From: a virus
UHGV virus genome: UHGV-0132465
DNA: 64,000 bases
Reading direction: 5' to 3' (one strand)
Each line of letters opens with the position of its first letter. The stretch's first letter is position 1. The notes below the pieces were generated by a model, which saw nothing but the letters and a program-made list of their open reading frames with translations, was not told where the DNA came from and ran no database searches. Positions 3,202 through 64,000 of the stretch are shown piece by piece. Both the position numbers and the translations under genes were made by a program.

Positions 3202-3647
3202 AACAGATATAGCTCCTTATGAAAGTGGGCTTTCAATTTCTCACCGAGAAACTTCTTGATACCTTCCTCTAAAGTGTTTTCGATGTAGTCCAGCTTAACT
3301 GCTTCAATAGACATATCATAGATCGCCAGCTCTAAGCTGTCAAGTCCCATCATAGCATGAACCATAAGATTTTCATCTTCAGATACATTCAGGGGACTTC
3401 CTATAACATCGGGAGGTAGAATAGTTTCCCAATTATTCTGGGCGGTAGATCTCCCGCCATCCACCTTACGTCTCAGCTCGAATGTATTCTTAGTGTAGAA
3501 CACTTCATAAGAGACGATACGACTGTCACTTTCATAATAGACGAAGTTCAAGTAGGAGCCTAGCCGCAGTCGGCAAACTTCTACCCCAAACCATTGTTTC
3601 TTATAGGAATTTAGGCTAATGCTGTCGCATTCACGTTTGCTCAACAC
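3198..3647 (-). CDS. hypothetical protein (149 aa)
   Basis: ORF in co-oriented compact block. Confidence 0.5.
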   Translation of the reverse strand: MLSKRECDSISLNSYKKQWFGVEVCRLRLGSYLNFVYYESDSRIVSYEVFYTKNTFELRRKVDGGRSTAQNNWETILPPDVIGSPLNVSEDENLMVHAMMGLDSLELAIYDMSIEAVKLDYIENTLEEGIKKFLGEKLKAHFHKELYLL

Positions 3648-3663
3648 GGCTCTCTCCTTTTTG

Positions 3664-3897
3664 TCAATCTTCGTAAATAATGATTTCTGCTTTAGGTTTT
3701 CGTGCTTTCAGGTCCAGCTCTATCCAGTGTACCATAGCTGTTTCAAGAAAAACAGCCTGGATGCATCCGTCTTCAGCGTGCCCTACCAGCATAACAAGAT
3801 CTTCACCTTCATCATCTGCATCACGAACATACAGAATCTCTCCAGATTCAAAGTCTTTCACAACCTGATTGCTGGATAATTTACGAATTTTTGCCAT
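3664..3897 (-). CDS. hypothetical protein (77 aa)
   Basis: ORF in co-oriented compact block. Confidence 0.45.
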   Translation of the reverse strand: MAKIRKLSSNQVVKDFESGEILYVRDADDEGEDLVMLVGHAEDGCIQAVFLETAMVHWIELDLKARKPKAEIIIYED

Positions 3898-3898
3898 A

Positions 3899-4162
3899 TC
3901 AGAAACCCTCTAAAAAGCTCTTGTAGAAAATAATCTCAGTATCCACACCAGTCACGATCTTGTCGTTCCTGATTTCATCTGTAAGATAGGTGTCAAAACG
4001 CAGCACCTGTGTGGTATTGTCACACATCCACTCGGCTGTTACCATGGCAAAAATCTTAGCATCTTCATTATCTGGTGTAAATGTTACCACCTCACCGCAT
4101 TTAAACTTTTCGATAGGTTGCGTGTTAGCTTTCGGTTCTGCAATAGTGATTTTTGTAGTCAT
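3899..4162 (-). CDS. hypothetical protein (87 aa)
   Basis: ORF in co-oriented compact block. Confidence 0.45.
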   Translation of the reverse strand: MTTKITIAEPKANTQPIEKFKCGEVVTFTPDNEDAKIFAMVTAEWMCDNTTQVLRFDTYLTDEIRNDKIVTGVDTEIIFYKSFLEGF

Positions 4163-4428
4163 TACTCTTCCTTCATAGTTTCACCAAATACTTCGATACG
4201 AGCGTCAAGCTCTGTTGCTTTCAGCTCCCCAACAAAATCTTTCAGTTCTTTCTCGTCAAGATCGTATGCCCACACACAAGATGAGCATGCAGATTTCACG
4301 ATTAGCAGTGTAGATACACGGCCTGACTCTGTAATCATGCTCACAATGGTTCCTACAGGGAACGTGTTGATAGCTTTTTTAACTGGGCGTTCAGCTTTAA
4401 TTACTACCTCTGTTGCCATAAATACCAT
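4162..4428 (-). CDS. hypothetical protein (88 aa)
   Basis: ORF in co-oriented compact block. Confidence 0.45.
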   Translation of the reverse strand: MVFMATEVVIKAERPVKKAINTFPVGTIVSMITESGRVSTLLIVKSACSSCVWAYDLDEKELKDFVGELKATELDARIEVFGETMKEE

Positions 4429-4434
4429 CCTCTC

Positions 4435-5895
4435 TTACTTAGCGTACTCGATTAATTCCACAGTTTTCCCAAAGCTCGGGATATAATTTTTATTATACCC
4501 TTCGGTGAGAACCCATAAAGTATCGTACTTTTTCCACTTGTTGTCAACAGCCTTTTGTTCAAAGTTATGCTCAAAGTATAGGTCGGTCAGGACGATGACA
4601 TCTTTTGCATTCGGTATATTGGCATCCAGATACTTGAACACGCAAGCAGCTGTTGTGCCCCATGTTGAGTGGATCTCATAGTTGATCATCTCATCTATGT
4701 TACCGCGAGTGTATACTTTAACCTCTCCAACCTCAGTTGACCAACAGAACATTGTAACCTTAAACTCTTTATACAGATTGCACAATCCGGTGATTTCATT
4801 GAACATTTTCTTTAAAGTTCTTTGAGAGATCGAGCCAGAAACGTCTAAAGCCACAACAATATCTATAGTGTTTTCCGGATTACGACCAGGAACAATAACG
4901 TGCTGGTTCTTGTTTATGGCCCCAACTTTTCGCATTGTGCTGGTCAAAGACCCAGATCGGCGACCAGGTTTTCTGTAGGTCAGTTCAGCCTTTCGTTTAG
5001 ACAACATGCGTTGCTTAATAATGTCTATATAGTTGATTACAGGCTTACCTCTGTTCTTGACGAACTCACGCACCGCCTCGGGGCAACGACCTCCGGAAGC
5101 TTGCATTGCTGCCTCCAGCATGTCACCAGAGTCCTGCATGGCCTGATCTTTATCAGATTGGCTGATTACAGGTTGTGGCTGATCATACCCCATAGCCTTT
5201 CCAAGATCATCACTGGTGCCACCGTTCCCGCTCATGTGATCATCGGTTTGTCGTTTATCTCCTTGAGAGTTCTCACCTTTACCGTTCTTACTTTTACCGT
5301 TATTCTGATCTCTTTGTTTATCGAGAACTGCATAGACGTTTTCAGCAATCCATCCATGAAACTTCATGTCGCAGTAGCAATTAGCTAAGAAGCCAAAAGG
5401 CTTACCTTTTACGAACGTAGTGCTTTTCCCCTTCGGGAAGAAAACACAAGGAGGCTTGCTAAAGTCAACCACAAGGCCTGTGTTGATAACGTGATCACAG
5501 GCAATATTGAACAGCTCCGGCTCAAAGCTTTTACCACGGACCAAATGATCGCAGATAATATGCCCCACCTCATGTGACAGAAGAAAGGCCACCTCTTTCA
5601 CAGATTTTGGAGAATAGAAAACCTCAGCCATCTCAAACTGCTCGTCAGTTAGAGAGGCTTTAAGAATGGTTTTGCGCTCATCTGCCAACCCCATAATAAA
5701 CTCAGGGCTGTAATAGATGCGTTTATGGTCTGTTGCCATAGTGGAGCACCATGTGTGGTTTTCTACGAACTGCAACCCTGATAACAGTGTGCCATAAAAC
5801 GGCAGCTTTTCAAGGAGATACATACGTGCAGCCTGCAACATTCTCAGGGCATCATCTTTTTGCGAGGCAATGATTTCTGAACTTCTGCTATCCAT
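4435..5895 (-). CDS. predicted metallopeptidase (HExxH) fused to von Willebrand factor A domain (DUF2201/COG3864-like)
   Basis: HEVGHIICDH zinc-peptidase motif followed by VALDVSGSIS MIDAS motif; start moved to second ATG (MDSRSSEI) because the first ATG sits inside a GGGGCC-AAT-GGCCCC hairpin and the second has a GGAG RBS. Confidence 0.7.
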   Translation of the reverse strand: MDSRSSEIIASQKDDALRMLQAARMYLLEKLPFYGTLLSGLQFVENHTWCSTMATDHKRIYYSPEFIMGLADERKTILKASLTDEQFEMAEVFYSPKSVKEVAFLLSHEVGHIICDHLVRGKSFEPELFNIACDHVINTGLVVDFSKPPCVFFPKGKSTTFVKGKPFGFLANCYCDMKFHGWIAENVYAVLDKQRDQNNGKSKNGKGENSQGDKRQTDDHMSGNGGTSDDLGKAMGYDQPQPVISQSDKDQAMQDSGDMLEAAMQASGGRCPEAVREFVKNRGKPVINYIDIIKQRMLSKRKAELTYRKPGRRSGSLTSTMRKVGAINKNQHVIVPGRNPENTIDIVVALDVSGSISQRTLKKMFNEITGLCNLYKEFKVTMFCWSTEVGEVKVYTRGNIDEMINYEIHSTWGTTAACVFKYLDANIPNAKDVIVLTDLYFEHNFEQKAVDNKWKKYDTLWVLTEGYNKNYIPSFGKTVELIEYAK

Positions 5896-5928
5896 TAAAA
5901 CTCCAGAAGGGGCCATTGGCCCCTGTCA

Positions 5929-6915
5929 TTATTTAACGTGTTTGAAAATACTCGCCAACTCGGTCATCGTCATGCGGGTGGTCTTCATAAGGTCTGTCAT
6001 AGCTTTTTCCATAATCGGTGATACTACCATGAAGTTACCTTTAGTGAAACCTTTGTTCCAATCGGTTACCAACAGAGGTTTGATTCCTGCCCCAAGACGC
6101 TCACCAGTTAAAGCACAGCATTTGCGGATGTACGCACTCTTAAATTGGCTGAAGGACAGATCAACTTTCATACCTGCATCGTAGAACGTTTGGCAATAGA
6201 AAGTGTAAGCCTTGGCAATCTCAACATCATCAGGCAGTGCAGGAACCTCTTCTGCAACCTCCTCTTCGACCTCCTGAGGCTCTTTTTCCTCTTCAAAGGG
6301 CTGTTGCACCATTTCTTCAATTTCTTCTGTCACAGGCTCGTTTACGATGTCTGAAATGTGTTTGTTGGCTGCACGCTCTGCCATGAAATTCTTAAAGTCC
6401 TGCATTGGTGACATATCTTCCTCCTCTTCGTCAAATAGTGCTAGTTTATCTTCTTCTGTCCCGTATTGCAAGATGAAATCTTCAAAAGTATATTCATCTT
6501 TTAATTCCTCCATCCTCTCTTCGCTCAGGTGGAGCATCATTTGTTGGACAATTTTTCGATCAGTTTTGTCCTTAATCAAGATTGCGGTCGTTTTATCTAC
6601 CAGACAATCCTTGAGAGAGTTGCACCGAAGTCCCACCACACAACAGTTATCAATTGCGTAAGGACCTTCATCGTTTATCCGCTCCAAAGATGGGTAGAAC
6701 GGATTCCCCAGCCCGTTTTCATCTGTGTGCATGTCAAAAGGAATAAGGGTGTAGTCGCATACCCCCTCTCCTAAAAGTTTTTTACCGAATAGGAGGTATT
6801 CTTCCCACGACAGGTCGAACACTATACCTCGTTTTCGGGCATTATTCTGTTTGCGTCTGTATTTTTTGAGCAGGCGTTCTAGCTCTTCTGGTGTATAATA
6901 TTTTTCAAGATTCAT
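5929..6915 (-). CDS. hypothetical protein with internal duplication and acidic linker
   Basis: two related segments (GIVFDLSWEEY... and KVDLSFSQFKSAY...) separated by a Glu-rich stretch; start chosen at MNLEKYY to avoid overlap with the divergent promoter region. Confidence 0.5.
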   Translation of the reverse strand: MNLEKYYTPEELERLLKKYRRKQNNARKRGIVFDLSWEEYLLFGKKLLGEGVCDYTLIPFDMHTDENGLGNPFYPSLERINDEGPYAIDNCCVVGLRCNSLKDCLVDKTTAILIKDKTDRKIVQQMMLHLSEERMEELKDEYTFEDFILQYGTEEDKLALFDEEEEDMSPMQDFKNFMAERAANKHISDIVNEPVTEEIEEMVQQPFEEEKEPQEVEEEVAEEVPALPDDVEIAKAYTFYCQTFYDAGMKVDLSFSQFKSAYIRKCCALTGERLGAGIKPLLVTDWNKGFTKGNFMVVSPIMEKAMTDLMKTTRMTMTELASIFKHVK

Positions 6916-6946
6916 GAGTTGTCTCTTGTGCTCTGTAGGTGAAGAA

Positions 6947-6975
6947 ATCTTATCAAGTGCCTCGACAGATGTCAA
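6947..6975 (-). promoter_or_regulatory. sigma70-like promoter for the minus-strand block (TTGACA-17-TAAGAT)
   Basis: consensus -35, 17-bp spacer, -10-like hexamer about 25 nt upstream of the 6915 start. Confidence 0.5.
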
Positions 6976-6988
6976 CCTCAAAAACGTA

Positions 6989-7017
6989 TTGACTTTACTA
7001 TAAATCCACGATATAGT
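6989..7017 (+). promoter_or_regulatory. sigma70-like promoter for the plus-strand block (TTGACT-17-TATAGT)
   Basis: divergent from the 6947-6975 promoter; about 40 nt upstream of the 7058 ATG. Confidence 0.55.
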
Positions 7018-7057
7018 GCACCCATTCGAAAGAAAACGAACACAGGAGCACTTAATC

Positions 7058-7957
7058 ATGGCAAATCTTAACAGCTTTAGCACTCGGTGGAAACAAGATA
7101 TCACAACCAATCTCTCAGCAGGTGATATCCTTTCTGCAATTTACGAGGCTTTGGATGATAAAGCTACTTCAAAATCGGTTTGTACCAACCCGCTAATTCC
7201 TATAGTAATGAAGGTTATTGAGCGTAGGCTGGTATCCGGATCTGATAAGTGGACATATCTGGATAATGGAGGCCACACTTACTCCAATGGCTATGTCGAT
7301 ATAAAAGTAGAATATGCGGTATCATATCGCCGGAGCGGCTCTGTAACTTTCAACTTCTCTGGTGGTTTCCGATCTCTGGCAACTTCACCTTTTGTTTCCT
7401 CAGAGGAGAAGTTTGAACTTCCGTTCCTTTGGATGATGGCTAACGCGACAGGCAAAACCCCCGTAAGCATTCGCGTAAAATACAACTACAACGGATCTAG
7501 TAAGATCTATGCCGAGAGTGTCTCAGCAAGTTTTTATTTTGTGATGGGGGATGGAATCCTCAAACATATAAAGATGTGCGATATGCATGATGTTATAAAT
7601 GAAGTGACTGATAAGAATGTTCTGGTGAAGGATCTCAACAATTTTTATACACCTGGAGACTATTACGTCAACCGTCCACTGTGTATCTTTAATGCCGCAC
7701 ACCCTTTAGGTGAGTATCTGATCGCCAATAGCGATATTGCCAATAACCGCTTCGAGGTAGCAAGAGTGCAGAATGAGGTGTTGACATCTTGCAAGAGCGG
7801 TGATAAGTTTACCGAAGAAGAGATGGGTGTTTTAGAAATGATGGGATATAAGTGTAGCCTTTGGGTGGATGAGGTGTTTAATGACGGCATCTACGGACAG
7901 GGTATTTACCCGTTAAAGAAGTATACTGATTCCAGTCTAATTTACGCGGAGATTTGA
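7058..7957 (+). CDS. hypothetical protein (300 aa)
   Basis: ORF with CAGGAG RBS; start moved from 7016 to the RBS-preceded ATG. Confidence 0.55.
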   Translation: MANLNSFSTRWKQDITTNLSAGDILSAIYEALDDKATSKSVCTNPLIPIVMKVIERRLVSGSDKWTYLDNGGHTYSNGYVDIKVEYAVSYRRSGSVTFNFSGGFRSLATSPFVSSEEKFELPFLWMMANATGKTPVSIRVKYNYNGSSKIYAESVSASFYFVMGDGILKHIKMCDMHDVINEVTDKNVLVKDLNNFYTPGDYYVNRPLCIFNAAHPLGEYLIANSDIANNRFEVARVQNEVLTSCKSGDKFTEEEMGVLEMMGYKCSLWVDEVFNDGIYGQGIYPLKKYTDSSLIYAEI

Positions 7958-26390: not shown

Positions 26391-26756
26391 ATGGAACAAA
26401 TGAACGATCAAGCGTCGGTTGCGATGAACGAGCAAGAACAACCTCAAGAATTTTTCTTAGGGTTAAGTAAAGATCAAGTGTCTCTTCTGCTAGTGCTTTC
26501 TTCTTTCATGGGAAGACTTCAGGAGCTTACACAACAGCCAGAGGCTGAACAATTATTCCAGGCTCTGCGTGAAGAAGAAAAATATCGTCGTTTGGACTAT
26601 GCCTTAGGTTGGGTAGCTCAACAACGAGATATGCTGATGGCCCTCTCTGGGACCACAAGTTTTGCAATGGGCCTGTTGGCTCAAGTTCAGGACAAATTAA
26701 TTCAAGCAGGGTTTGCACACACGGCAAACACTAACGAAGAACAAGGAGATAAATAA
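26391..26756 (+). CDS. hypothetical protein (121 aa)
   Basis: start at ATG after GGAGA RBS. Confidence 0.5.
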   Translation: MEQMNDQASVAMNEQEQPQEFFLGLSKDQVSLLLVLSSFMGRLQELTQQPEAEQLFQALREEEKYRRLDYALGWVAQQRDMLMALSGTTSFAMGLLAQVQDKLIQAGFAHTANTNEEQGDK

Positions 26757-27982
26757 TGAGCGTTATTCAACAATTCGCTAACCCGATGAATCCGCGTGAA
26801 ACTGTTTTACTGGCTCACGGCATGATTAAACGTGTCAGCATCAAGCCTATCAAAGGTGCTGATCCTACAACAGGTATTAAAACCACTGTGTGGCAAGGTA
26901 AGAAAATTGAATCCAGCCACACCATCTCTTTACTGATTTCTGAACTGGATTCCTCTGATAACCTGCTTCAAGGTGGTGAAGAAGTTTGGATCAGTATGGG
27001 TGATAAGCTGCTTAAACCGGGTCATCAAGACTCTGTCTCTGTTAAAATTGATGACAAGTGGGAAACTGTAACGCCAGGATGGATCGTAAATATCCCTTTG
27101 AAGGCAAACGAGCATAACGGTAAGACCTATTACAAAGGCTCCCTGGCTAAGATGGTCAAGCTGGGTGCAGGAGAGGCTCCAGCAGCGACTCAGCAGCAAA
27201 AACAGCAACAAGGTGCACAATCACAAGGCCAGAAGCAGAAACCTCAGCAGAATGCCAATCAGGACGTTTTACGCATCTATGGCGATGTGACTCAGATTGT
27301 TGGCAACGTGGTTACTGTCAATGATCACAAGATTGGTGAAGGTGCTATGGTTGTCTCTGATGAGCAGCTTAAAGACCTGGTGGTAGGTGGTCGTGTTGCA
27401 GCTATTGTTGACAAAGACACCGGGAATATTATCAGCGGTTTTAAAGCCTACCCCCCAAAGGCAGAGAACAGCACTCAAGGCTCTGGTGGTAAGCGTAAAT
27501 CTTCTTATGATCCTATCGGTGTAGAAACAGGGCATAGCATCAATGCGTTGCAAATCATCCTGGATCGCGGGTTTAAGGTAGACAATCCTTTAGACGTGGC
27601 TAAAACACTACACGTTGTCACCATTGAGCTTAAGAAAGAGTACGCTCAAGCCACCAACCGAACTGAAGATGAAGTAGGTGCCAGTGTTGGTAATGCGGTA
27701 TTGAACGCTTGTCGCCGTATTGACAAGAAAACGAAAGTTGACGATTTTGCAGTAGCAATTACTGCAGAAGCAAAAGATGTCTTGACTAATCTTGCTGAAC
27801 CGTTGTATGATTGGATCAAGAACGGTGCTGGGGCCACTGACCATCAAGAACCTCAAGCTGCCAAACAGGAGGCCGCTCCACAGCAAAACACTGTAGACGC
27901 TCCTCCTGTAGATGATGGGGAAGACGACCCTATGGATCAGAATCCAGCACAGTACGCCTTTGATGATGACATTCCTTTTTAA
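26756..27982 (+). CDS. ssDNA-binding-protein-like protein with Gln-rich linker and E. coli SSB-type C-terminal tail
   Basis: ends in AFDDDIPF, matching the E. coli SSB C-terminal DDDIPF tip; Gln-rich low-complexity linker; N-terminal fold not recognisable by eye. Confidence 0.55.
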   Translation: MSVIQQFANPMNPRETVLLAHGMIKRVSIKPIKGADPTTGIKTTVWQGKKIESSHTISLLISELDSSDNLLQGGEEVWISMGDKLLKPGHQDSVSVKIDDKWETVTPGWIVNIPLKANEHNGKTYYKGSLAKMVKLGAGEAPAATQQQKQQQGAQSQGQKQKPQQNANQDVLRIYGDVTQIVGNVVTVNDHKIGEGAMVVSDEQLKDLVVGGRVAAIVDKDTGNIISGFKAYPPKAENSTQGSGGKRKSSYDPIGVETGHSINALQIILDRGFKVDNPLDVAKTLHVVTIELKKEYAQATNRTEDEVGASVGNAVLNACRRIDKKTKVDDFAVAITAEAKDVLTNLAEPLYDWIKNGAGATDHQEPQAAKQEAAPQQNTVDAPPVDDGEDDPMDQNPAQYAFDDDIPF

Positions 27983-27997
27983 CATCTAGTTAACATA

Positions 27998-28025
27998 GCC
28001 CTGCCCGAAAGGGTGGGGCATTTTT
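27998..28025 (+). terminator. intrinsic terminator, second copy of the 17839 hairpin
   Basis: identical GCCCTGCCC-GAAA-GGGTGGGGC stem-loop followed by T-run. Confidence 0.7.
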
Positions 28026-28557: not shown

Positions 28558-28755
28558 ATGATTTATCGAATCCGTGTGAGAGAAGATGCACCAGGTTGTT
28601 ACTTTGACTGGCGTGGGTGGTGGTTTCTCCACCCAATGGATGGACTCACAGATAGAATGCTAGATGCTGCCCTTTACACAGATACTGACATAGAGTATAA
28701 TCTTTACTTGAAGGATGGTATCGATAACGGCCTGTTTGAAGCAATTCCTGCGTAA
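28558..28755 (+). CDS. hypothetical protein (65 aa)
   Basis: ORF with AGGAGG RBS. Confidence 0.45.
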   Translation: MIYRIRVREDAPGCYFDWRGWWFLHPMDGLTDRMLDAALYTDTDIEYNLYLKDGIDNGLFEAIPA

Positions 28756-28820: not shown

Positions 28821-29246
28821 ATGATTTATGAAATGCCAAAACTGATTCGTGACGATGCACGAAACGCCCACACCTTTATTATGGGCAAGCGCATGGATAT
28901 TATTTGTCACAAAGACTTCTGGGAAGGGAGCTACTTCACAGAATATTTTGGAAAAATGGATGATGGCCTACTGATCCAGTTTTACACCGATGCGGAAAAC
29001 AACATTAGTTGGGAGTTCGAGACCGAAGATATCCATAAACTTTTCACCTTCCTAGACATTAAGGTTAAGGCCAAGTTTGAAGAAGGTGAGTGCGACGATT
29101 GTGGATTTTATGAGGTAACAGATTTCTATCTTCCGAGCGGTAAAAACCTTTACTATGAAAGCCACTTCGGTAACTCCAATATGCCACAGTGCTGGACTGA
29201 GTTTTTTGAAATTGTGGAAGAGGAGCTGGAATATCGTGATTATTGA
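28821..29246 (+). CDS. hypothetical protein (141 aa)
   Basis: ORF in co-oriented compact block. Confidence 0.5.
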   Translation: MIYEMPKLIRDDARNAHTFIMGKRMDIICHKDFWEGSYFTEYFGKMDDGLLIQFYTDAENNISWEFETEDIHKLFTFLDIKVKAKFEEGECDDCGFYEVTDFYLPSGKNLYYESHFGNSNMPQCWTEFFEIVEEELEYRDY

Positions 29247-29694
29247 TACTGTGGAGGGAGATTTAATCTCCCTTTTTAAGAGCGGTGCTGGTCACCTGAT
29301 CCACGGTTGTAACTGCTTCCACACAATGGGTAAGGGTGTAGCGAAACAGATTGCCCGTGAGTTCCCTCAAGCATTGGAAGCTGATAAAATGACTATGCAC
29401 GGTTGCCTAAGTAAACTGGGCGCGTTCTCCCGCTGGGAGCACTTATCTCCGAGAGGTATTGTCTACGGAATAAATCTGTATACTCAGTTCTACCCAGGGC
29501 CTAATGCTGAATATTTCTCAATACTGAAAGGCTTTGAGCGAGTCAATGAAGTATTTGAGGGGTCGATTTTACCATTCTACATCCCTAAGATCGGGTGCGG
29601 CATAGGTGGTTTGAAGTGGGAACATGTAGAGGACATTATTAACCTTGCCACTTTTGATATAGATATTATCGTGGTGGAGTACAAAGAGTGTTGA
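29236..29694 (+). CDS. TARG1/OARD1/DarG-like macrodomain protein (putative ADP-ribose hydrolase)
   Basis: GDLISLF...HGCNCFHTMGKGVAKQIAREFP and IPKIGCGIGGLKWEHVEDII align by eye with human TARG1 (GDLFA...[38 protein letters not shown]); GTG start after GGAG. Confidence 0.7.
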   Translation: MIIDTVEGDLISLFKSGAGHLIHGCNCFHTMGKGVAKQIAREFPQALEADKMTMHGCLSKLGAFSRWEHLSPRGIVYGINLYTQFYPGPNAEYFSILKGFERVNEVFEGSILPFYIPKIGCGIGGLKWEHVEDIINLATFDIDIIVVEYKEC

Positions 29695-29748
29695 CAGCTA
29701 TATTTTAAGGTGGTATAGTCACCACAACGATTAAGACAGAGGAGCACT

Positions 29749-30140: not shown

Positions 30141-30203
30141 AAGGTTGACATCTGAAAACTGCGGTGTATAATATAAACATAAACTAGCAGAGAGGGATAA
30201 ATT

Positions 30204-56435: not shown

Positions 56436-56720
56436 CTACCAGGTCACTGTCAAGTAGGCAACTGTGTTATTTTTCTCCGGGGAGATGCCAACAACATCCA
56501 CCTGCAGACCTCCTGCCCTCAAATCCCCAACGATGTGTGGGAAGTAGTCTGAGAGGTGTGATGGAAGATTTATCGAAAATCCGCATCCCAGAAAGCCTGC
56601 TAACGCCTTATTTTGTATCTCCCCTACAATCGCATCATAAATGGAGTTAAGCTCGTCAGGGAGAGTTACAGGACGTTTTAGCGCTAACTGGTGCAACTTG
56701 TCCTTAGCACTCATTTTCAT
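56436..56720 (-). CDS. hypothetical protein (about 94 aa)
   Basis: start moved to MKMSAKD after GGAGG RBS to abut the upstream gene. Confidence 0.5.
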   Translation of the reverse strand: MKMSAKDKLHQLALKRPVTLPDELNSIYDAIVGEIQNKALAGFLGCGFSINLPSHLSDYFPHIVGDLRAGGLQVDVVGISPEKNNTVAYLTVTW

Positions 56721-57250
56721 TTCAAGTCTGCCTCCGGAGGTGCCAACCACATAAATGGTGGTAGGTCTAAACGGTTCTTCTTGTCCCACACAAAATATGC
56801 ATATGCTTGCCCGTCAGTTCTGCCATTCGATTGGAATGATGGACGCTTAGATATTGTGATCACAGTGGTAGGGGCATTATCAAGCCACCATTCAAATCTG
56901 GCCTTGCTTTCCAGAAAATTAAGACGCAAAAGCATAATAACTACGTCGGCATCTTTCAACGCCTTGTCCACAAACTCACGAGCCAGGCTGTACGGCGGGT
57001 TGGTGATAATACAGTCAACATGGTTGTATTCTGTATTCAGATAGTCAACACCTTCTTGGATTTCTCCCCATGCAGATCCTAACGGCATACGGGAGTAGAA
57101 CACACCTGAGGCGCTATTCCTGCAAGGCTCCAAATAGGTCCAATCTTCTGGGAACGGAATGAGGTCATACAACCCTTCTGCACACCACTCTGGTGTCACA
57201 TATTCATCATAGGCGTTACGTTGTTCGTCAGGTTTTCTAGCACAAGTCAT
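56717..57250 (-). CDS. phage Dam-family DNA N6-adenine methyltransferase
   Basis: YVTPEW...LEPC... then CIITNPPYS (NPPY catalytic motif), size about 177 aa as in small phage Dam proteins. Confidence 0.65.
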   Translation of the reverse strand: MTCARKPDEQRNAYDEYVTPEWCAEGLYDLIPFPEDWTYLEPCRNSASGVFYSRMPLGSAWGEIQEGVDYLNTEYNHVDCIITNPPYSLAREFVDKALKDADVVIMLLRLNFLESKARFEWWLDNAPTTVITISKRPSFQSNGRTDGQAYAYFVWDKKNRLDLPPFMWLAPPEADLK

Positions 57251-57261
57251 GCAAATCTCCA

Positions 57262-57290
57262 GATCATAAAAGCCCTCCGAAGAGGGCTTT
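57262..57290 (-). terminator. candidate intrinsic terminator on minus strand (AAAGCCCTC-UUCG-GAGGGCTTT)
   Basis: 9-bp stem with UUCG loop downstream of the ClpP-like gene. Confidence 0.5.
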
Positions 57291-57301
57291 AAGATTAATG
57301 T

Positions 57302-58351
57302 TTAAGCTTCTTCGATAATTCCTGCGCCCAGGATTTTTTCATTGAGCTCTTTTGCTGTTTTAATAATATTGTCCACCAGACGCTTGCGGGTCTTATCTTT
57401 AACCTGAACTTCTTCACCTCCGTTCAGGGTGGTTTTCAATTGGGACAAAATGTCCTGAAGCTCTACCACAGAGAATCGCTGCAGATCTTCCGAGGTAATC
57501 TCACTCAGTGCAATCTTAACGGTCTCACCACTCTCCATCTGCAGATTCAGGAACACAGTGTGAACATCACCTTTCATACCATTTGCTTTTGCAGACTCAA
57601 CAGCGTGAACCAGCTCGTCCAGAGATGTGCATTGGTGAATCTCTGGCAGGCCTGCTTCGCCTAGCACACCTTCTTCATCACTTTTTGCCAAAAGCTTTTT
57701 CGGTTTCTGCCCATTCTGAATGCGCTGAATGTTTTCATCGTCCAGAATGATAGCACCAGTTCGAGCTGCCAGCTCTTCTCCATCCAACCACACTTCTCCA
57801 CCAGCCGTGATGGATGCGATCTCATCTTCTGTCAGAACCCCACCGTAGTATTTTTCGATCAGGCGTTCAAAACGTTTCTTCCAGTAGTTGACCTGAGTAT
57901 TCATGTTCACACCGTTGCCATAGGTGCCACCTTGATAGTAGTGGAACATAAACTCTGTGTCCGGAGCCACAGTTCGTTCTTTGCAACCCAGCCATAAGAT
58001 TGTTCCTGCTGAGCAGCACATCCCTTCAGCGTGTACAACAACGCTTGCCTGAGACTCGCGGAATGCCTGCAAATACGCCATGGCAATGTGGACGCAACCA
58101 CCAGGGCTGTTAACAATTACACGGATACTTTCTTCCGGCTGTGCCATACGAATTGTTTGCAAACGGGACATATGATCCTGCAAATCATCAAGATCGTCAA
58201 TATAAAGCACGTGGTCAACAACTGGCGTTGGGTAGCTGTATGTTTCCATAATACCACCAGGCATACCAAACATTTTATTACTCATCGGTTCGAAGCCGTT
58301 CTGTTTTTCTTTCATGCCGTGTACCATGGTGCTGCGAGGTGTTAAATTCAT
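57302..58351 (-). CDS. ClpP-family serine peptidase with C-terminal extension
   Basis: VNSPGGCVHIAMAYL and GMCCSAGTIL matching ClpP nucleophile region; 349 aa. Confidence 0.8.
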   Translation of the reverse strand: MNLTPRSTMVHGMKEKQNGFEPMSNKMFGMPGGIMETYSYPTPVVDHVLYIDDLDDLQDHMSRLQTIRMAQPEESIRVIVNSPGGCVHIAMAYLQAFRESQASVVVHAEGMCCSAGTILWLGCKERTVAPDTEFMFHYYQGGTYGNGVNMNTQVNYWKKRFERLIEKYYGGVLTEDEIASITAGGEVWLDGEELAARTGAIILDDENIQRIQNGQKPKKLLAKSDEEGVLGEAGLPEIHQCTSLDELVHAVESAKANGMKGDVHTVFLNLQMESGETVKIALSEITSEDLQRFSVVELQDILSQLKTTLNGGEEVQVKDKTRKRLVDNIIKTAKELNEKILGAGIIEEA

Positions 58352-58411
58352 GTGAGGTCCTTAATGTTGGAAAGTTAAAAGCGATCTATTTAAACCTGAT
58401 TCTCATTTACT

Positions 58412-58723
58412 TTATTTAGCAATTACCATGGAATACTTACAATTGTCAGAAGCATCACAGGTCAACGATTGCCAGTCTACCACATACCACGTGTCATTGT
58501 CAACAATTACTTTATCCCCTGTTCTGTAAAATGTGTTGCTTTCAATAACACGGGACTCAGTGAAGAATCGGTGTCTTCGCTCACGTAGTAGCGCCAAGTT
58601 GATTATGTTACCACCGCTGTCCTTAATCCACACATTCTTGTATCCTTTGTTTGCCAAAATTGTCTCACCGTTATAGACAAATAGGCAGTATATCTTATTC
58701 AGTCTCTCTTGTATTGTAGCCAT
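58412..58723 (-). CDS. hypothetical protein (103 aa)
   Basis: ORF with AAGGAG RBS and own promoter. Confidence 0.5.
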   Translation of the reverse strand: MATIQERLNKIYCLFVYNGETILANKGYKNVWIKDSGGNIINLALLRERRHRFFTESRVIESNTFYRTGDKVIVDNDTWYVVDWQSLTCDASDNCKYSMVIAK

Positions 58724-58748
58724 ACTGTCATTCTCCTTGTTTTGTTCG

Positions 58749-58777
58749 ATAATACCTAAAACTTATCTGTTTGTCAA
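58749..58777 (-). promoter_or_regulatory. sigma70-like promoter on minus strand (TTGACA-17-TATTAT)
   Basis: consensus hexamers about 25 nt upstream of the 58723 start. Confidence 0.55.
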
Positions 58778-58822
58778 TAATTGTTTTAGATATTTAAGGG
58801 TGGAATAACCACCCTTTTTGTA

Positions 58823-59611
58823 TTACTCGGAAACAGGCGTCCAAATATGATTTGCACGATCCTTAATAAGATTGAGTGCAATCTGACGACCCAACCCGGA
58901 ACGAACGACATCATCTGGGCTATCAAAGCTAATCATCCCAACCTCAGGATCTGGATGACGAGTAAAGAAATCCGTTACCCATGCAAGCCCAGACTTACCA
59001 GGGATGTCACGTTGGCTATTATCACCCATGATTACAAGTGTGGCCTGATCAGAGATCCTTGTGATAATTGACAACATCTCTTCAGGGTTAGTTTGCTGTG
59101 CCTCGTCAATTAGGACAAAGCATCGCTCATCGAAACTACGACCACGAATGCTTTCAACTTCACAGATCTCGATACGACTGTTCTGACCATCTCCCAGCAT
59201 TGCGGCAAAAGCACCTTTGCCAACACGACGACAAATCGTGTCCATCATGCTTCGGAGATAGGGCCACAGTTTCTGCATTGCGTTTCCAGGTTTAAACCCT
59301 GAAGTCTTTCCTGTCTGAACGTAAGGGCGTGCAACAATGATCTTATCAATCTCGTTCTTACGCAAAAGATCACCTGCATATGCGGATGCCATGAATGTCT
59401 TACCGGATCCAAACACACCGTTTACAATAATAATCTTACGCGATCCTAGATAATCAAGATACTTTTGCTGCTTTTTGTTCATTGGTCTGAGAGCTGGAGC
59501 TGTGTGCTCTCGTTCGTCAGCAAATTTCTCAGCAGCCTTACGCAGACGATCAGATTTGCGAGCCTCTTTGGCTTCATCACGCATGCGTTTTGTTTCTTTA
59601 GCTCGACCCAT
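58823..59611 (-). CDS. phoH: PhoH-like ATPase
   Basis: Walker A GVFGSGKTF, Walker B CFVLIDEAQ, LVIMGDNSQ; 262 aa. Confidence 0.9.
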   Translation of the reverse strand: MGRAKETKRMRDEAKEARKSDRLRKAAEKFADEREHTAPALRPMNKKQQKYLDYLGSRKIIIVNGVFGSGKTFMASAYAGDLLRKNEIDKIIVARPYVQTGKTSGFKPGNAMQKLWPYLRSMMDTICRRVGKGAFAAMLGDGQNSRIEICEVESIRGRSFDERCFVLIDEAQQTNPEEMLSIITRISDQATLVIMGDNSQRDIPGKSGLAWVTDFFTRHPDPEVGMISFDSPDDVVRSGLGRQIALNLIKDRANHIWTPVSE

Positions 59612-59649
59612 GTTGGGACTCCTTTCAGATTGAGATGTGTCAAGAACTT

Positions 59650-60000
59650 CTACTGCAACAGTTTTTCAATAGCCGCTTCCATGCTGCTTGCAACAGCCTG
59701 AACTCGGATATTCATCTCTTCTTGGCGGATCAGCTCCTTAAGCTCTTTAACGGTGAATTCTTTGGAGAAACCTTCCACCATAATCTTGTGCAAGGCTTCT
59801 TGCGTGTCTACTTGCAAGAACTTTTCCAGTTTGTTGGCAGAGGCCTCTAAATCGGCCCGAATACGTGGGTCATCTGTTCGGTTCAGCATTAGGCGTAAGC
59901 CATCAAGATTGGTAGAAATAGCGTCTGCATGTTGAGTAACCAACCGTGGCAAAATGAGATCTACAAACTTACTGGCTAAATCAATACGCTCTTGTGTCAC
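59650..60000 (-). CDS. hypothetical protein (116 aa)
   Basis: ORF (GTG start) in co-oriented block. Confidence 0.45.
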   Translation of the reverse strand: MTQERIDLASKFVDLILPRLVTQHADAISTNLDGLRLMLNRTDDPRIRADLEASANKLEKFLQVDTQEALHKIMVEGFSKEFTVKELKELIRQEEMNIRVQAVASSMEAAIEKLLQ

Positions 60001-60172
60001 TGTTGCACCCCCTCTTCATCTCCATGATATTTCTTTTCACGCTTGTGTTTTTTCTTAAGCTCAAGCGCAATCTCTTTCTTGTACGCCTTCTTCAAGGCTT
60101 TTTTAGCCATTTGGCACCTCCTCTGCTTTCATTACGATAATTATAACCAACTTACCAAAGCTTTGTCAACGA

Positions 60173-60646
60173 TTAGTCAACCTGAACCCAACCGCCTGCT
60201 ACCTTTTTAAACATTCTTTGGTTATCGCTGCCTCGGAATGGTTTCTTTGTTGGTAAATCTTTTACATACTTGCCATCAATGATGATATCAGCCAGCTCAA
60301 GAACATCACTAGAGATATGCTCAAATGTGAACCCAGTATACACAAGAATAGTTTTCTTGTCACCAAACTTTTCCTTAATTCTCCTCATAAGTTTAATAAT
60401 ACCGGGCTCATTATACGTAGCCAAAGGCTCTCCACCAAGCAAAGAAATACCGCATATAGATTCATTGTCTAAATCTGACAAAATTCTCTGCAAATCTTCT
60501 TCGGTGAATTCTCTTCCCTTATCTTTTGACCAAAATGCTTGATTAAAGCAACCAGGACAAGCGTGTGGGCACCCAGATACCCACAAGGCCGTCCTGAGAC
60601 CTGGCCCTTCGGTGTAGGATATTTCTGTGTATCCGACAATATTCAT
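60173..60646 (-). CDS. nrdG: anaerobic ribonucleotide reductase activating protein (radical SAM)
   Basis: GPGLRTALWVSGCPHACPGCFN cluster, GGEPL, YTG, RGS.NQ matching E. coli NrdG. Confidence 0.9.
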   Translation of the reverse strand: MNIVGYTEISYTEGPGLRTALWVSGCPHACPGCFNQAFWSKDKGREFTEEDLQRILSDLDNESICGISLLGGEPLATYNEPGIIKLMRRIKEKFGDKKTILVYTGFTFEHISSDVLELADIIIDGKYVKDLPTKKPFRGSDNQRMFKKVAGGWVQVD

Positions 60647-60759
60647 AAGTACTCCGCATCACATTTAGGACAATGCCAAATAAAATCGTCCAGTGCCTTG
60701 CACCAACGAAGATTGCAATGACAACCACACTTGCAAATTTTATAAATACCTGACGACAT
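60643..60759 (-). CDS. small zinc-ribbon protein (38 aa) between nrdD and nrdG
   Basis: ATG after AGGAGGTG RBS; CKCGCHC ... CPKC cysteines; stop overlaps nrdG start (ATGA); below ORF-track cutoff. Confidence 0.45.
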   Translation of the reverse strand: MSSGIYKICKCGCHCNLRWCKALDDFIWHCPKCDAEYL

Positions 60760-60822
60760 ACTGCACCTCCTAGTTTACTGTGTAACAACAATATGCCACA
60801 TCCTTGTGGCTTTTGTCAAGTA

Positions 60823-62946: not shown

Positions 62947-63221
62947 TTTTTCTCTCCAAAACCATTCTTAACAAAAGAGATGAAATCGTCAGCACCACCT
63001 ATGTGGACACTATCAAGGTTGCTTTCCAAGAAGATCTGAGGCAACGTTCTGGGAACAAATGGACTACACTTCTCAATAAGCTCTTCTTTTGTGTATCCTT
63101 CACCGAGCGTCTTGTATACGAAAGGTATACCTTTGCTTGCTGCAAATTCTTTTGCTCTTACACAATGTGGGCAGTTATCCTTACCGTAGATGATAATGAA
63201 AAAAGATTTTTCACAGCTCAT
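62943..63221 (-). CDS. glutaredoxin / NrdH-like redoxin
   Basis: CPHC active site in IYGKDNCPHCVRAKE; 92 aa; adjacent to RNR genes. Confidence 0.75.
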   Translation of the reverse strand: MSCEKSFFIIIYGKDNCPHCVRAKEFAASKGIPFVYKTLGEGYTKEELIEKCSPFVPRTLPQIFLESNLDSVHIGGADDFISFVKNGFGEKK

Positions 63222-63224
63222 GTA

Positions 63225-64000
63225 TTAAAACTCCCAAATTTCTTCTTCAGCGTCATTAACAGTTGTGTTGACGCGATAGTCGGTGTTAGACATTTCCTGG
63301 TTAGCCGTCTGTTGCAGTGAAGGTTTCATCCACACCTGCATAAACGGTAACGGGTCTTTTGTTGGCGGCACAAAGTCTTTGTCGATGTTATAGTAATCAT
63401 AAATCGGTGAACAGTTATAGTCAACCCATTCTTTAAGTAATGGTGAGTTAAGCCCTATAATCGCCCTTCCTTCGCTGAAAATATAGTCACTCCAACCGTA
63501 CTCCTTGATCCGTACTTCGTCAAGAATCTCTTTTAACTCTCCCTTAATCTCAAGAAAGCTTTGCTCCCATGTAGGATCATCAAGCAGGATATCGATGATA
63601 GCAAAATCACCTTTCGAATGCAGCATCTCATCAAGCATAATTTTTTGAACGAGTTGTGCAACTTGAACAAAAATACCTTGCTCAGCTACTGCGAACGTAC
63701 ATGCAAAACTTGCAATAAACTCAATACTCTCTAGAGCTAAAAGTGCAAAAAGTGCTCTAAGGATACATTTCCGTACAACATCTTCTTCAACACTGGAAGG
63801 ATCCAGTCGGTATTTTGCACCAATAACCTCAAGCTCTTGCATATATTTGACAATAACTCCAGACCTGCTTAGCACGTTCTGGTTTTCCTGAATCTCTTCT
63901 ATAATCTCACGAGCATTAGGAAGGCATTGTCTAACAATCTCTGAGTAAGTTAGTGCATGAAGAACCTCGATCTCAGACTGCTTCATCAACAAGGTGAAAA
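63225..64000 (-). CDS. nrdB: class I ribonucleotide reductase small subunit, C-terminal part (gene continues beyond window end)
   Basis: LESIEFIASFA...DE..H di-iron/ferritin-like pattern; ORF open to window edge, so the ORF-track M at 63992 is probably internal. Confidence 0.7.
   Translation of the reverse strand, partial: FTLLMKQSEIEVLHALTYSEIVRQCLPNAREIIEEIQENQNVLSRSGVIVKYMQELEVIGAKYRLDPSSVEEDVVRKCILRALFALLALESIEFIASFACTFAVAEQGIFVQVAQLVQKIMLDEMLHSKGDFAIIDILLDDPTWEQSFLEIKGELKEILDEVRIKEYGWSDYIFSEGRAIIGLNSPLLKEWVDYNCSPIYDYYNIDKDFVPPTKDPLPFMQVWMKPSLQQTANQEMSNTDYRVNTTVNDAEEEIWEF

What the first reader, a model, noticed from the sequence alone, without database searches (positions are those of the whole stretch)
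29236..29694. Phage-encoded TARG1/DarG-like macrodomain as a candidate counter-defence against DNA ADP-ribosylation
The 152-aa product carries the two most diagnostic TARG1/OARD1 segments (GDL..LF...HGCNC.HTMGKGVAKQIAREF and IPKIGCGIGGLKWEHV). This macrodomain clade includes the DarG antitoxin, which reverses DarT ADP-ribosylation of thymidine in ssDNA. DarTG is an anti-phage system, so a phage copy sitting among replication genes (polymerase, SSB-like, helicases) is a plausible anti-DarT factor. Alternative: it reverses protein ADP-ribosylation by host or phage ART enzymes.
Basis: partly seen in the sequence, partly recalled or inferred. Interest (0 to 1): 0.8.

Follow-up and report, generated by a model that had tools for sequence, protein, structure and literature searches.

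The report
Phage anti-DarT macrodomain (T4 AdfM ortholog)

Summary
The ORF is real: window 29236-29694 (+), GTG start, 152 aa, in a Vequintavirus (rV5-like) coliphage. It is a macrodomain of the TARG1/DarG/Poa1p/SCO6735 (ALC1-like) class: Pfam Macro is above its cut-off, the AF2 model has pLDDT 96.8, and the top Foldseek hits are TARG1, DarG and Poa1p.

The TARG1 Lys/Asp dyad and the DarG catalytic Lys are absent. An invariant Gln84 occupies that site, as in SCO6735, a proven thymidine-ADP-ribose DNA hydrolase whose Q85A mutant is dead.

The protein is a full-length homolog of T4 Tk.4 (41% identity, E 7e-43; 70% to RB49 Tk.4) and shares its HGCNCFHTMG and NLYTQFxPGPN signature. A 2025 preprint named Tk.4 AdfM: it was the only T4 gene required on DarTG2 hosts. 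PhiKZ gp104, a Lys-type macrodomain, was independently shown to remove DarT2 marks from DNA.

A sister clade, Adpp, is an ADPR-1''-phosphate phosphatase inside NARP1 operons. This phage lacks NARP1 and the query groups with Tk.4 (89% bootstrap), so that rival is weaker but not excluded.

It is a new member of a known kind, of low to moderate interest.

The parts
29236..29694 (+). Macrodomain gene: 152 aa, GTG start, TGA stop at 29692-29694. It is an ortholog of T4 tk.4 (adfM).
   Evidence: ORF and translation. Pfam Macro. 41% identity to T4 Tk.4 and 70% to RB49 Tk.4. AF2 pLDDT 96.8.
29221..29226 (+). Shine-Dalgarno sequence GAGGAG, 9 nt upstream of the GTG start.
   Evidence: Read directly from the sequence.
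29311..29313 (+). Codon for Asn26, the conserved macrodomain active-site Asn. It is equivalent to SCO6735 Asn27 and to PhiKZ AdfM Asn23.
   Evidence: Invariant in 92 homologs. Alignment with the references. Mutating the equivalent Asn reduces activity in PhiKZ AdfM, DarG and SCO6735.
29485..29487 (+). Codon for Gln84. It occupies the position of TARG1 Lys84, DarG Lys80 and SCO6735 Gln85.
   Evidence: Invariant in 92 homologs. Profile and MAFFT alignments. SCO6735 Q85A is inactive.
29584..29610 (+). The P117-K-I-G-C-G-I-G-G125 loop, which is the diphosphate-binding glycine-rich loop. The TARG1 Asp125 equivalent is Gly124.
   Evidence: P117 and G120 are invariant; I119, G122 and G125 are at least 90% conserved. 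Alignment to TARG1 PRIGCGLDR.
28821..29246 (+). Upstream 141-aa ORF of unknown function (phrog_8157). Its stop overlaps the macro start by 11 nt, so the two are probably co-transcribed and translationally coupled.
   Evidence: It is not related to T4 Vs, which precedes tk.4 in T-even phages.
28673..28701 (+). Sigma-70-like promoter candidate (TTTACA-17-TATAAT, 11 of 12 matches) that could drive ORF 28821 plus the macro gene from the host RNA polymerase, i.e. early.
   Evidence: Consensus scan. The -10 hexamer is conserved in rV5_ev147, but the site lies inside a coding region, so conservation is weak evidence.

Best explanation
The gene encodes a stand-alone (orphan-antitoxin-like) macrodomain ADP-ribosyl glycohydrolase of the T4 Tk.4/AdfM type.

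Proposed mechanism: the gene is expressed from host-type promoters early in infection, within the replication and accessory gene block. The enzyme binds the ADP-ribose moiety that a host DarT2 toxin attaches to thymidine in single-stranded phage DNA (TNTC motifs). It hydrolyses the base-ribose bond, restoring unmodified DNA so that replication and packaging can proceed.

Catalysis would use the Lys-independent, Gln-dependent mechanism described for SCO6735. There, Gln84 (with Asn26) positions the distal ribose and an activated water. This differs from the Lys nucleophile of TARG1 and the catalytic Lys of DarG.

Shown here: the fold, the class, the active-site make-up, orthology to T4 Tk.4, orphan status and the absence of NARP1. 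Inferred: the substrate (thymidine-ADP-ribose on ssDNA), the biological target (DarTG2) and the timing of expression.
For: 1. Macrodomain of the ALC1-like class: Pfam; profile against PDB with SCO6735, DarG, BT1257, TARG1 and Poa1p at 1e-14 to 5e-18; Foldseek TM 0.75-0.79.
2. The only NCBIfam and PADLOC hits are DarG (2e-12 and 2e-14), covering the macrodomain part only.
3. Full-length homology to T4 Tk.4 (41% identity, E 7e-43) and RB49 Tk.4 (70%). The three share the signature HGCNCFHTMG plus NLYTQFxPGPNxEY with an 8-residue loop. The Tk.4 trio excludes NARP1-linked proteins, SCO6735, BT1257 and TARG1 in 89% of 200 bootstraps.
4. T4 tk.4 was the single HIDEN-SEQ hit on DarTG2, and its knockout sensitises T4.
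5. Gln-type chemistry is competent on thymidine-ADP-ribose DNA: SCO6735 cleaves it and protects against DarT, and Q85A is dead. N26 and Q84 are invariant in 92 homologs.
6. A second, Lys-type phage macrodomain (PhiKZ gp104) removes DarT2 marks in vitro and in vivo.
7. Orphan status: no DarT or any Pfam domain in 10 neighbours, and the protein is too short for DarG's C-terminal DarT-binding domain.
8. In one T4-like contig a Tk.4-type macro gene abuts a NADAR gene, the anti-DarTG1 domain.
9. Sigma-70-like promoters flank the gene.
Against: - No experiment exists on this protein or on any Vequintavirus. The Bas54 (Vequintavirinae) transposon library was not reported as screened on DarTG2.
- The T4 evidence is genetic, comes from a preprint, and the enzymatic step was inferred there too.
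- 41% identity does not guarantee the same substrate.
- The wider family contains Adpp, a proven ADPR-1''-phosphate phosphatase that also carries the Gln. TARG1-like enzymes are promiscuous, acting on protein Glu/Asp-ADP-ribose, O-acetyl-ADP-ribose and U-ADP-ribose RNA.
- The query lacks the longer Lys-bearing mobile loop that SCO6735 uses for DNA binding.
- Bootstrap support for a single monophyletic YTQ family is low, at 32%.
Confidence: 0.62

Rival explanations
1. It is an ADPR-1''-phosphate phosphatase (Adpp/Poa1p-like). It would convert the ADPR-1''-P made by RES-domain NAD+ phosphorylases (aRES defence) or by other pathways into ADP-ribose. On this reading it is a small-molecule counter-defence or metabolic enzyme, not a DNA repair enzyme.
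For: - The family is annotated 'phosphatase / Poa1p_like'.
- Poa1p is among the top sequence and structure hits and shares the IH-x-CNC motif.
- Homologs at 27-34% identity sit between Adps and Namat in Vibrio phages Achelous, K460 and 5P1b.
- The Vibrio phage Gary protein of this operon type dephosphorylates ADPR-1P and is needed against aRES.
- The Gln is shared by both clades.
Against: - Adpp is useful because it feeds NARP1. Neither Adps nor Namat is detectable in the window or in the 97%-identical complete B9-1 genome (best tblastn E 0.24, against 8.5e-18 for the macro control; annotations).
- The query groups with T4 Tk.4, not with NARP1-linked proteins (89% bootstrap).
- It lacks their 12-15-residue loop and GCGLAGG motif.
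- None of 7 metagenomic contexts of YTQ-type homologs has NARP1 genes.
- T4, which also lacks NARP1, needs Tk.4 against DarTG2.
Confidence: 0.17
2. It reverses ADP-ribosylation of proteins or RNA rather than DNA. Possible targets are host ART defences that modify mRNA (CmdTAC-like) or phage proteins. It might also erase marks written by a phage ART.
For: - TARG1 removes Glu/Asp-linked protein ADP-ribose, SCO6735 acts on protein substrates as well, and TARG1, DarG and SCO6735 remove uracil-linked ADP-ribose from RNA.
- Recurrent RNA ligase and kinase genes lie near homologs in uncultured phages.
Against: - No ART domain was found among the large ORFs of the window or among the neighbours.
- The TARG1 Lys/Asp dyad used for protein Glu-ADP-ribose is absent.
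- The only genetic phenotype known for the ortholog is DarTG2-specific.
Confidence: 0.12
3. It is a non-catalytic ADP-ribose (or ADPR-derived signal) binder or sponge, for example sequestering ADPR-based immune signals.
For: Macrodomains are high-affinity ADP-ribose binders. rV5_ev147's annotation calls it an 'ADP-ribose binding module'.
Against: - Strict invariance of the catalytic-site Asn26 and Gln84 across 92 homologs argues for catalysis.
- Characterised relatives (SCO6735, Adpp, PhiKZ AdfM) are enzymes.
- There is no evidence of the oligomeric sponge architecture.
Confidence: 0.04

Closest known systems
T4 Tk.4 = AdfM (anti-DarT factor Macrodomain), HIDEN-SEQ preprint 10.1101/2025.11.20.689424
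   Same: - Stand-alone phage protein of about 150 aa, alignable end to end (41% identity, E 7e-43).
- Identical signature motifs (HGCNCFHTMG; NLYTQFxPGPNxEY; P[KR]IGxGIG) and the same Gln at the catalytic position.
- Same clade in the tree.
- Both phages lack NARP1.
   Different: - Different phage family (Vequintavirinae versus Straboviridae) and different neighbours (T4: vs-tk.4-tk.3; here: lineage-specific unknown ORFs).
- 59% of residues differ.
- No phenotype has been measured for the Vequintavirus protein.
SCO6735 (Streptomyces coelicolor; PDB 5E3B) and BT1257 (2FG1/2AFC)
   Same: - Best profile-sequence match in the PDB (5e-18).
- Gln replaces the catalytic Lys, and neither TARG1 dyad residue is present.
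- SCO6735 hydrolyses thymidine-linked ADP-ribose on ssDNA and neutralises DarT.
   Different: - Only about 28% identity.
- SCO6735 has a 5-6-residue longer mobile loop carrying Lys89 and Lys93, which help bind DNA. The query has the short loop typical of DarG and TARG1.
- SCO6735 is a cellular protein, not a phage one.
DarG antitoxin macrodomain of DarTG2 (PDB 5M3I, 5M31; NCBIfam NF048014)
   Same: Same macrodomain class. It gives the only NCBIfam and PADLOC hits and the best single-sequence PDB hit (4e-7). The presumed substrate (thymidine-ADP-ribose ssDNA) is the same.
   Different: - No C-terminal DarT-binding domain (152 aa versus about 340; 47 bits against a 250-bit cut-off).
- No adjacent darT.
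- The catalytic Lys80 is replaced by Gln.
PhiKZ gp104 = AdfM (Cell Rep 2026, PMC13309987)
   Same: A phage-encoded stand-alone macrodomain, proven to remove DarT2 ADP-ribose from DNA and to protect the phage. The Asn (N23 there, N26 here) is conserved.
   Different: Only 23-24% identity (E 2e-5). It is a Lys-type (PTKDNW) DarG-like active site, is imported into the phage nucleus, and was probably acquired independently.
Adpp of NARP1-AP (Vibrio phage Gary; preprint 10.64898/2026.01.28.702374) and yeast Poa1p
   Same: Same broad phage macrodomain family (27-34% identity to NARP1-linked members), Gln at the same position, and the shared H-x-CNC motif.
   Different: - Adpp lies inside Adps-Adpp-Namat operons, which are absent from this phage.
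- It has a longer post-Gln loop and a GCGLAGG motif.
- Its substrate is the free metabolite ADPR-1''-phosphate.
Human TARG1/OARD1 (PDB 4J5R)
   Same: Best structural match (Foldseek E 5e-10, TM 0.78/0.85). It also removes thymidine-linked ADP-ribose.
   Different: The catalytic Lys84/Asp125 dyad is absent (Gln84 and Gly124 here). Identity is 24-26%.

Membership tests
Macro domain superfamily (Pfam PF01661) | Score above the Pfam gathering threshold, and a macrodomain alpha/beta/alpha fold | tested here: met
   32 bits against a cut-off of 22, E 1.3e-7, covering profile positions 1-118 of 118. AF2 pLDDT 96.8; 170 PDB macrodomain matches at E<=1e-3.
ALC1-like / TARG1-like macrodomain class | Closest sequence and structure relatives are TARG1, DarG, Poa1p and SCO6735 rather than MacroD, PARG or viral Mac1 types | tested here: met
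   Profile against PDB: class members score 5e-18 to 1e-14, while nsp3 Mac1 scores 2e-3. The top 21 Foldseek hits are class members, apart from one designed protein.
TARG1 (OARD1) proper | Catalytic Lys84/Asp125 dyad | tested here: not met
   Lys84 aligns to Gln84 and Asp125 to Gly124. Gln84 is invariant in the family.
DarG antitoxin (DarTG2; NCBIfam NF048014) | Score above the equivalog cut-off, i.e. macrodomain plus C-terminal DarT-binding domain | tested here: not met
   47.1 bits against a cut-off of 250. The match covers profile positions 3-143 of 338 only, and the protein is 152 aa.
DarG antitoxin (DarTG2; NCBIfam NF048014) | Encoded next to a darT toxin gene | tested here: not met
   Ten flanking ORFs have no Pfam hit at all, and all belong to phage-specific PHROGs of unknown function.
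DarG antitoxin (DarTG2; NCBIfam NF048014) | Catalytic Lys80 in the PTK(K)HW motif | tested here: not met
   Aligned to LYTQFYP; Gln is in place of Lys.
AdfM, T4 Tk.4 type | Full-length homology to T4 Tk.4 and membership of its clade | tested here: met
   41% identity over 153 columns, E 7e-43. 70% identity to RB49 Tk.4. The trio excludes NARP1-linked proteins, SCO6735, BT1257 and TARG1 in 89% of bootstraps.
AdfM, T4 Tk.4 type | Signature motifs: HGCNCFHTMG, YTQ plus an 8-residue loop (FxPGPNxEY), P[KR]IGxGIG | tested here: met
   Alignment. The motif census finds YTQ/8 in 69 of 112 sequences, including the query, T4 and RB49.
AdfM, T4 Tk.4 type | Required for phage growth on DarTG2-expressing hosts | not testable with these tools
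   Shown for T4 only. The Bas54 library was not reported on DarTG2.
AdfM, PhiKZ gp104 type | DarG-like Lys-type active site and close homology to gp104 | tested here: not met
   24% identity, E 2e-5. gp104 has PTKDNW, while the query has YTQFYP.
Adpp (NARP1-AP ADPR-1P phosphatase) | Encoded within or next to an Adps-Namat (NARP1) operon | tested here: not met
   No Adps or Namat in the window or in the complete B9-1 genome (best E 0.24). Annotation tables agree.
Adpp (NARP1-AP ADPR-1P phosphatase) | Sequence features of NARP1-linked members (Y[G/A]Q, 12-15-residue loop, GCGLAGG) | tested here: not met
   The query has YTQ, an 8-residue loop and GCGIGG.
Adpp (NARP1-AP ADPR-1P phosphatase) | ADPR-1''-phosphate phosphatase activity | not testable with these tools
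   A biochemical assay is needed. Activity cannot be excluded from sequence.
SCO6735/BT1257 type | Gln at the catalytic position, together with the conserved Asn | tested here: met
   Q84 aligns to Q85 and N26 to N27.
SCO6735/BT1257 type | Extended mobile loop with Lys89 and Lys93 | tested here: not met
   The loop is 8 residues, against 13-14 in SCO6735 and BT1257.

The most novel reading that the evidence does not exclude
The Tk.4-type Gln macrodomains may be dual-purpose erasers. The same active site would both remove ADP-ribose from thymine in ssDNA (anti-DarTG2) and dephosphorylate or deconjugate free ADPR derivatives such as ADPR-1''-phosphate (the Adpp activity). If so, AdfM and Adpp, named independently by two labs, would be one enzyme family whose members counter two mechanistically unrelated defences. 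The Vequintavirus protein would then protect against more than DarTG2, possibly including a still-unknown ADP-ribosylating system of E. coli.
Probability: 0.15. Interest if true: 0.55.

Novelty: new member of a known kind. Interest (0 to 1): 0.27.

Why it matters
If confirmed, it would extend the AdfM counter-defence from T-even and jumbo phages to Vequintavirinae. These are broad-host-range coliphages used in therapy cocktails and O157 biocontrol, so the result would help predict which hosts carrying DarTG2 they can still infect.

The comparison also surfaces a point the two recent preprints do not connect. T4 AdfM and the NARP1-associated phosphatase Adpp belong to one Gln-type macrodomain family, found in about 2,800 of 50,697 phage records. 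The two can be told apart by a short loop signature and by genomic context. That gives a practical rule for annotating the thousands of genes now labelled 'phosphatase' or 'macro domain protein'. It also raises a testable question about substrate specificity.

The concept itself, a phage orphan DarG-like macrodomain against DarT, is already established, so the finding is confirmatory rather than surprising.

Tried and rejected
- **Alternative start.** The ATG at 29155 (179 aa) was rejected: it overlaps the upstream ORF by 92 nt and has no homolog support.
- **Reverse strand.** It has multiple stops.
- **TARG1-type catalysis.** Rejected because the Lys/Asp dyad is absent.
- **Bona fide DarG.** Rejected: no C-terminal domain and no darT neighbour.
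- **Upstream 141-aa ORF as a T4 Vs homolog.** No similarity (E 14).
- **Neighbour functions.** Pfam returned nothing, and PHROGs returned only unknown-function families.
- **ART, NADAR or NAD-salvage genes.** None among the 20 larger ORFs of the window. Small ORFs were not scanned, and a divergent NADAR such as AdfN-Bas60 could be missed.
- **NARP1 in the Vequintavirus genome.** Absent.
- **Literature searches.** 'phage-encoded macrodomain' and 'NARP1' + 'macrodomain' returned nothing. The relevant papers use 'Macro domain' or 'AdfM'.
- **Scripts.** Two failed on file layout, and a Biopython bootstrap timed out.
- **First NJ tree.** It placed the Lys-type long branches (DarG, PhiKZ gp104, 5P1b_0177) inside the YTQ group. 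I treated this as long-branch artefact and repeated the analysis without them. Deep branching of the family stays unresolved: monophyly of all YTQ proteins has only 32% support.
- **NADAR-macro adjacency.** It recurred in only 1 of 7 contexts, so it is anecdotal.
Full report
**Observation.** Window 29236-29694 on the + strand reads through 152 codons to a TGA, while the opposite strand is full of stops. A GAGGAG Shine-Dalgarno lies 9 nt upstream of the GTG start, and the start overlaps the stop of the preceding 141-aa ORF by 11 nt. The same 459-nt gene is annotated in phage rV5_ev147. T4 and RB49 homologs align from residue 1, so the GTG start is preferred over the ATG at 29155. The quoted peptide segments are present.

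**Source.** The window is a Vequintavirus (rV5-like) coliphage, 97% identical over this region to Escherichia phage B9-1. GenBank records already label the gene 'macro domain protein', 'phosphatase' or 'O-acetyl-ADP-ribose deacetylase'. The B9-1 record starts it at an internal Met, giving 122 aa and removing the active-site Asn.

**What kind of protein it is.**
- Pfam Macro is above threshold (32 bits against 22), and PHROG 335 'phosphatase' matches at 1e-60.
- The only hits in NCBIfam and PADLOC are to DarG (2e-12 and 2e-14). They cover only the macrodomain part and fall far below the equivalog cut-off (47 against 250 bits).
- A single-sequence search of PDB sequences gives the M. tuberculosis DarG macrodomain as best hit (4e-7).
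- A profile of 92 homologs hits SCO6735 (5e-18), DarG (1e-17), BT1257 (2e-17), TARG1 (5e-17) and Poa1p (1e-14), well ahead of coronavirus Mac1 at 2e-3.
- The AlphaFold2 model is very confident (pLDDT 96.8, pTM 0.91). Its best Foldseek matches are TARG1 (TM 0.78/0.85), Poa1p, DarG, BT1257 and SCO6735.

The fold and the class (ALC1-like / TARG1-like) are therefore confirmed.

**Active site.** Both residues are absent. TARG1 Lys84 and DarG Lys80 align with Gln84 (LYTQFYP), and TARG1 Asp125 aligns with Gly124. Gln84 and Asn26 are invariant across 92 homologs.

This is not a dead enzyme. SCO6735 has Gln85 at exactly this position, and its Q85A mutant is inactive. SCO6735 nevertheless cleaves thymidine-linked ADP-ribose on ssDNA and protects cells from DarT (PMC9411070). 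The protein is thus a Gln-type member of the class.

**Orthology to a characterised phage protein.** A tblastn search against 50,697 phage records finds homologs in 2,810 of them. Among them are RB49 tk.4 (70% identity) and T4/T2 tk.4 (41%). Direct comparison with T4 Tk.4 gives 41% identity over the full length, E 7e-43.

The HIDEN-SEQ preprint (10.1101/2025.11.20.689424) reports tk.4 as the single T4 gene depleted on a DarTG2-expressing host. It shows that a clean knockout sensitises T4, and it names the gene adfM. Independently, PhiKZ gp104 was named AdfM and shown to remove DarT2 marks from DNA in vitro and to be needed against DarTG2 (PMC13309987). gp104 is only 24% identical to the query and is Lys-type.

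The analogous NADAR-based AdfN counters DarTG1. Some Vequintavirinae relatives (Bas60-62) carry one.

**A real rival.** While inspecting homolog loci I found the homolog of Vibrio phage Achelous lying between a PRPP-synthetase-like gene and a Nampt-like gene. Phages K460 and 5P1b show the same arrangement. This is the NARP1-AP operon of Osterman et al. (preprint 10.64898/2026.01.28.702374). Its Macro-domain protein Adpp (Vibrio phage Gary) is a Poa1p-like ADPR-1''-phosphate phosphatase that lets NARP1 overcome the RES-domain defence aRES. One broad phage macrodomain family thus has two experimentally supported functions.

**Discriminating the two.**
1. *Context.* Neither Adps nor Namat is detectable in the window or in the complete B9-1 genome. 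The best tblastn E is 0.24, whereas the macro control scores 8.5e-18 (annotations). Larger ORFs of the window carry no ART, NADAR or NAD-salvage domains.
2. *Sequence.* The query, T4 Tk.4 and RB49 Tk.4 share HGCNCFHTMG, YTQ followed by an 8-residue loop (FxPGPNxEY), and P[KR]IGxGIG. NARP1-linked proteins have Y[G/A]Q, a 12-15-residue loop and GCGLAGG, resembling SCO6735 and BT1257.
3. *Phylogeny.* In 200 NJ bootstraps the query/T4/RB49 trio excludes NARP1-linked proteins, SCO6735, BT1257 and TARG1 in 89% of replicates. The query is closer to T4 Tk.4 than to any NARP1-linked protein in 86.5%. Deeper structure is unresolved (32% for monophyly of all YTQ proteins), and a first tree misplaced the Lys-type long branches.
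4. *Uncultured relatives.* Seven long contigs carrying YTQ-type homologs have no NARP1 genes. In one T4-like contig the macro gene directly abuts a NADAR gene.
5. *Frequency.* About 15% of 859 NARP1 operons in 20,185 genomes carry Adpp, whereas about 5.5% of all phage records carry a family member. Most members therefore lie outside NARP1 operons.

**Context and expression.** The gene lies in a long same-strand block downstream of a PIF1-like helicase, a helicase/primase and a DNA polymerase. It sits among small lineage-specific ORFs of unknown function. Strong sigma-70-like promoters occur at 28673-28701, at 29691-29719 (overlapping the stop codon) and at 30145-30172. For the 29691 site, the hexamers are conserved in rV5_ev147 while the spacer has diverged. 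This fits transcription by host RNA polymerase early in infection, when a counter-defence enzyme would be needed, but it remains inference.

**Mechanism proposed.** The protein would be made early and would bind the ADP-ribose that host DarT2 places on thymidine in ssDNA at replication forks. It would hydrolyse the N-glycosidic link using the Gln84/Asn26 water-activating mechanism of SCO6735 rather than a Lys nucleophile. That would restore replication-competent DNA. Having no C-terminal DarT-binding domain, it would act only enzymatically.
- Shown: fold, class, active-site composition, orthology, orphan status, absence of NARP1.
- Inferred: substrate, target system, timing.

I put 0.62 on this explanation, 0.17 on an Adpp-like small-molecule phosphatase role, 0.12 on protein or RNA de-ADP-ribosylation (TARG1-like enzymes also remove uracil-linked ADP-ribose from RNA), and 0.04 on a non-catalytic binder.

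**Novelty and score.** The gene is annotated as a macro domain protein in public records. rV5_ev147's annotation even links it to a T4 gene cluster. Its T4 ortholog and an analogous PhiKZ protein are published as anti-DarTG2 factors, and bioinformatic surveys have noted DarG-like macrodomains in viruses.

What is new is modest. It comprises the assignment of the Vequintavirus protein to the Tk.4/AdfM clade and the recognition that T4-type AdfM is a Gln-type (SCO6735-like) enzyme. It also includes a sequence-and-context rule separating AdfM-type from Adpp-type members of one family. This is a new member of a known kind, with interest about 0.27.

Noticed in passing
window 26756-27982 (+): A 408-aa protein (phrog_4477, unknown function, no Pfam hit) is Gln-rich in the middle. 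It ends in ...FDDDIPF, identical to the C-terminal tip of E. coli SSB that recruits SSB-interacting proteins. It may be the phage SSB or an SSB-tail mimic. A strong intrinsic terminator follows at 27998-28019.
   Followed up: partly
window 29691-29719 and 30145-30172 (+): Two near-perfect sigma-70 promoters lie here: TTGACA-17-TATAGT with a TG extension, overlapping the macro gene's stop codon, and a 12/12 TTGACA-16-TATAAT. For the first, the hexamers are conserved in rV5_ev147 while the spacer has diverged, suggesting a functional early promoter for the downstream small genes.
   Followed up: partly
L001 13327-13695 (phage B9-1, OQ420740.1 106527-106895): The GenBank CDS for the macro domain protein of B9-1 starts at an internal Met, giving 122 aa. 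This cuts off the first 30 residues, including His23 and the active-site Asn26. It is probably a start-codon mis-annotation, since rV5_ev147 carries the full 152-aa call.
   Followed up: yes
L011 1917-2357 and 4001-4471 (Vibrio phage 5P1b): This phage has two different macrodomain genes flanking its Adps gene. One is a Gln-type Adpp-like protein next to Namat. The other is a Lys-type (QTKYHW) DarG/PhiKZ-AdfM-like protein upstream of Adps. One locus may thus combine an ADPR-1P phosphatase with a DNA de-ADP-ribosylase.
   Followed up: partly
L015 2307-4474 (T4-like metagenomic contig, Logan ERR9118886): RtcB, a NADAR-domain protein and a Tk.4-type macrodomain lie in a row, with the NADAR and macro genes abutting (3497-4000, then 4001-4474). 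This is a candidate combined anti-DarT1/anti-DarT2 cassette. The adjacency was seen in 1 of 7 contexts examined.
   Followed up: partly
L012, L013, L014 (metagenomic contigs); L005 (Achelous): RNA-repair-type genes (AAA_33 kinase, T4-type RNA ligase, metallophosphatase, PDDEXK nuclease) recur within a few kb of Tk.4-family macro genes in unrelated phages. This could be mere synteny of accessory regions, or a link to RNA repair or ADPR-1''-P metabolism. It remains unexplained.
   Followed up: no
L009 3722-4456 (Escherichia phage KMB37, Justusliebigvirus): Here the macro protein is annotated as 244 aa, with an N-terminal extension of about 90 aa. It directly follows a phosphoribosyltransferase and a HAD hydrolase, with no adjacent Nampt-like gene. 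This may be a variant NAD-related operon or a mis-called start.
   Followed up: no
window 4435-5916 (-) and 5929-7110 (-): A DUF2201 protein (putative metallopeptidase plus VWA-like domain) sits next to a 393-aa ORF with no Pfam hit. B9-1 labels this pair 'anti-sigma factor'. DUF2201 proteins usually pair with MoxR ATPases. The HIDEN-SEQ preprint reports a Bas54 MoxR ATPase gene (bas54_0063) as required against the predicted defence system DS-28. Whether this is the same locus was not checked.
   Followed up: no
window 56717-63992 (-): An ordinary nucleotide-metabolism and host-takeover block: a Dam-like methyltransferase fragment, a ClpP-like protease (349 aa), PhoH, the NrdG activase, anaerobic NrdD and the class I RNR small subunit.
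   Followed up: yes
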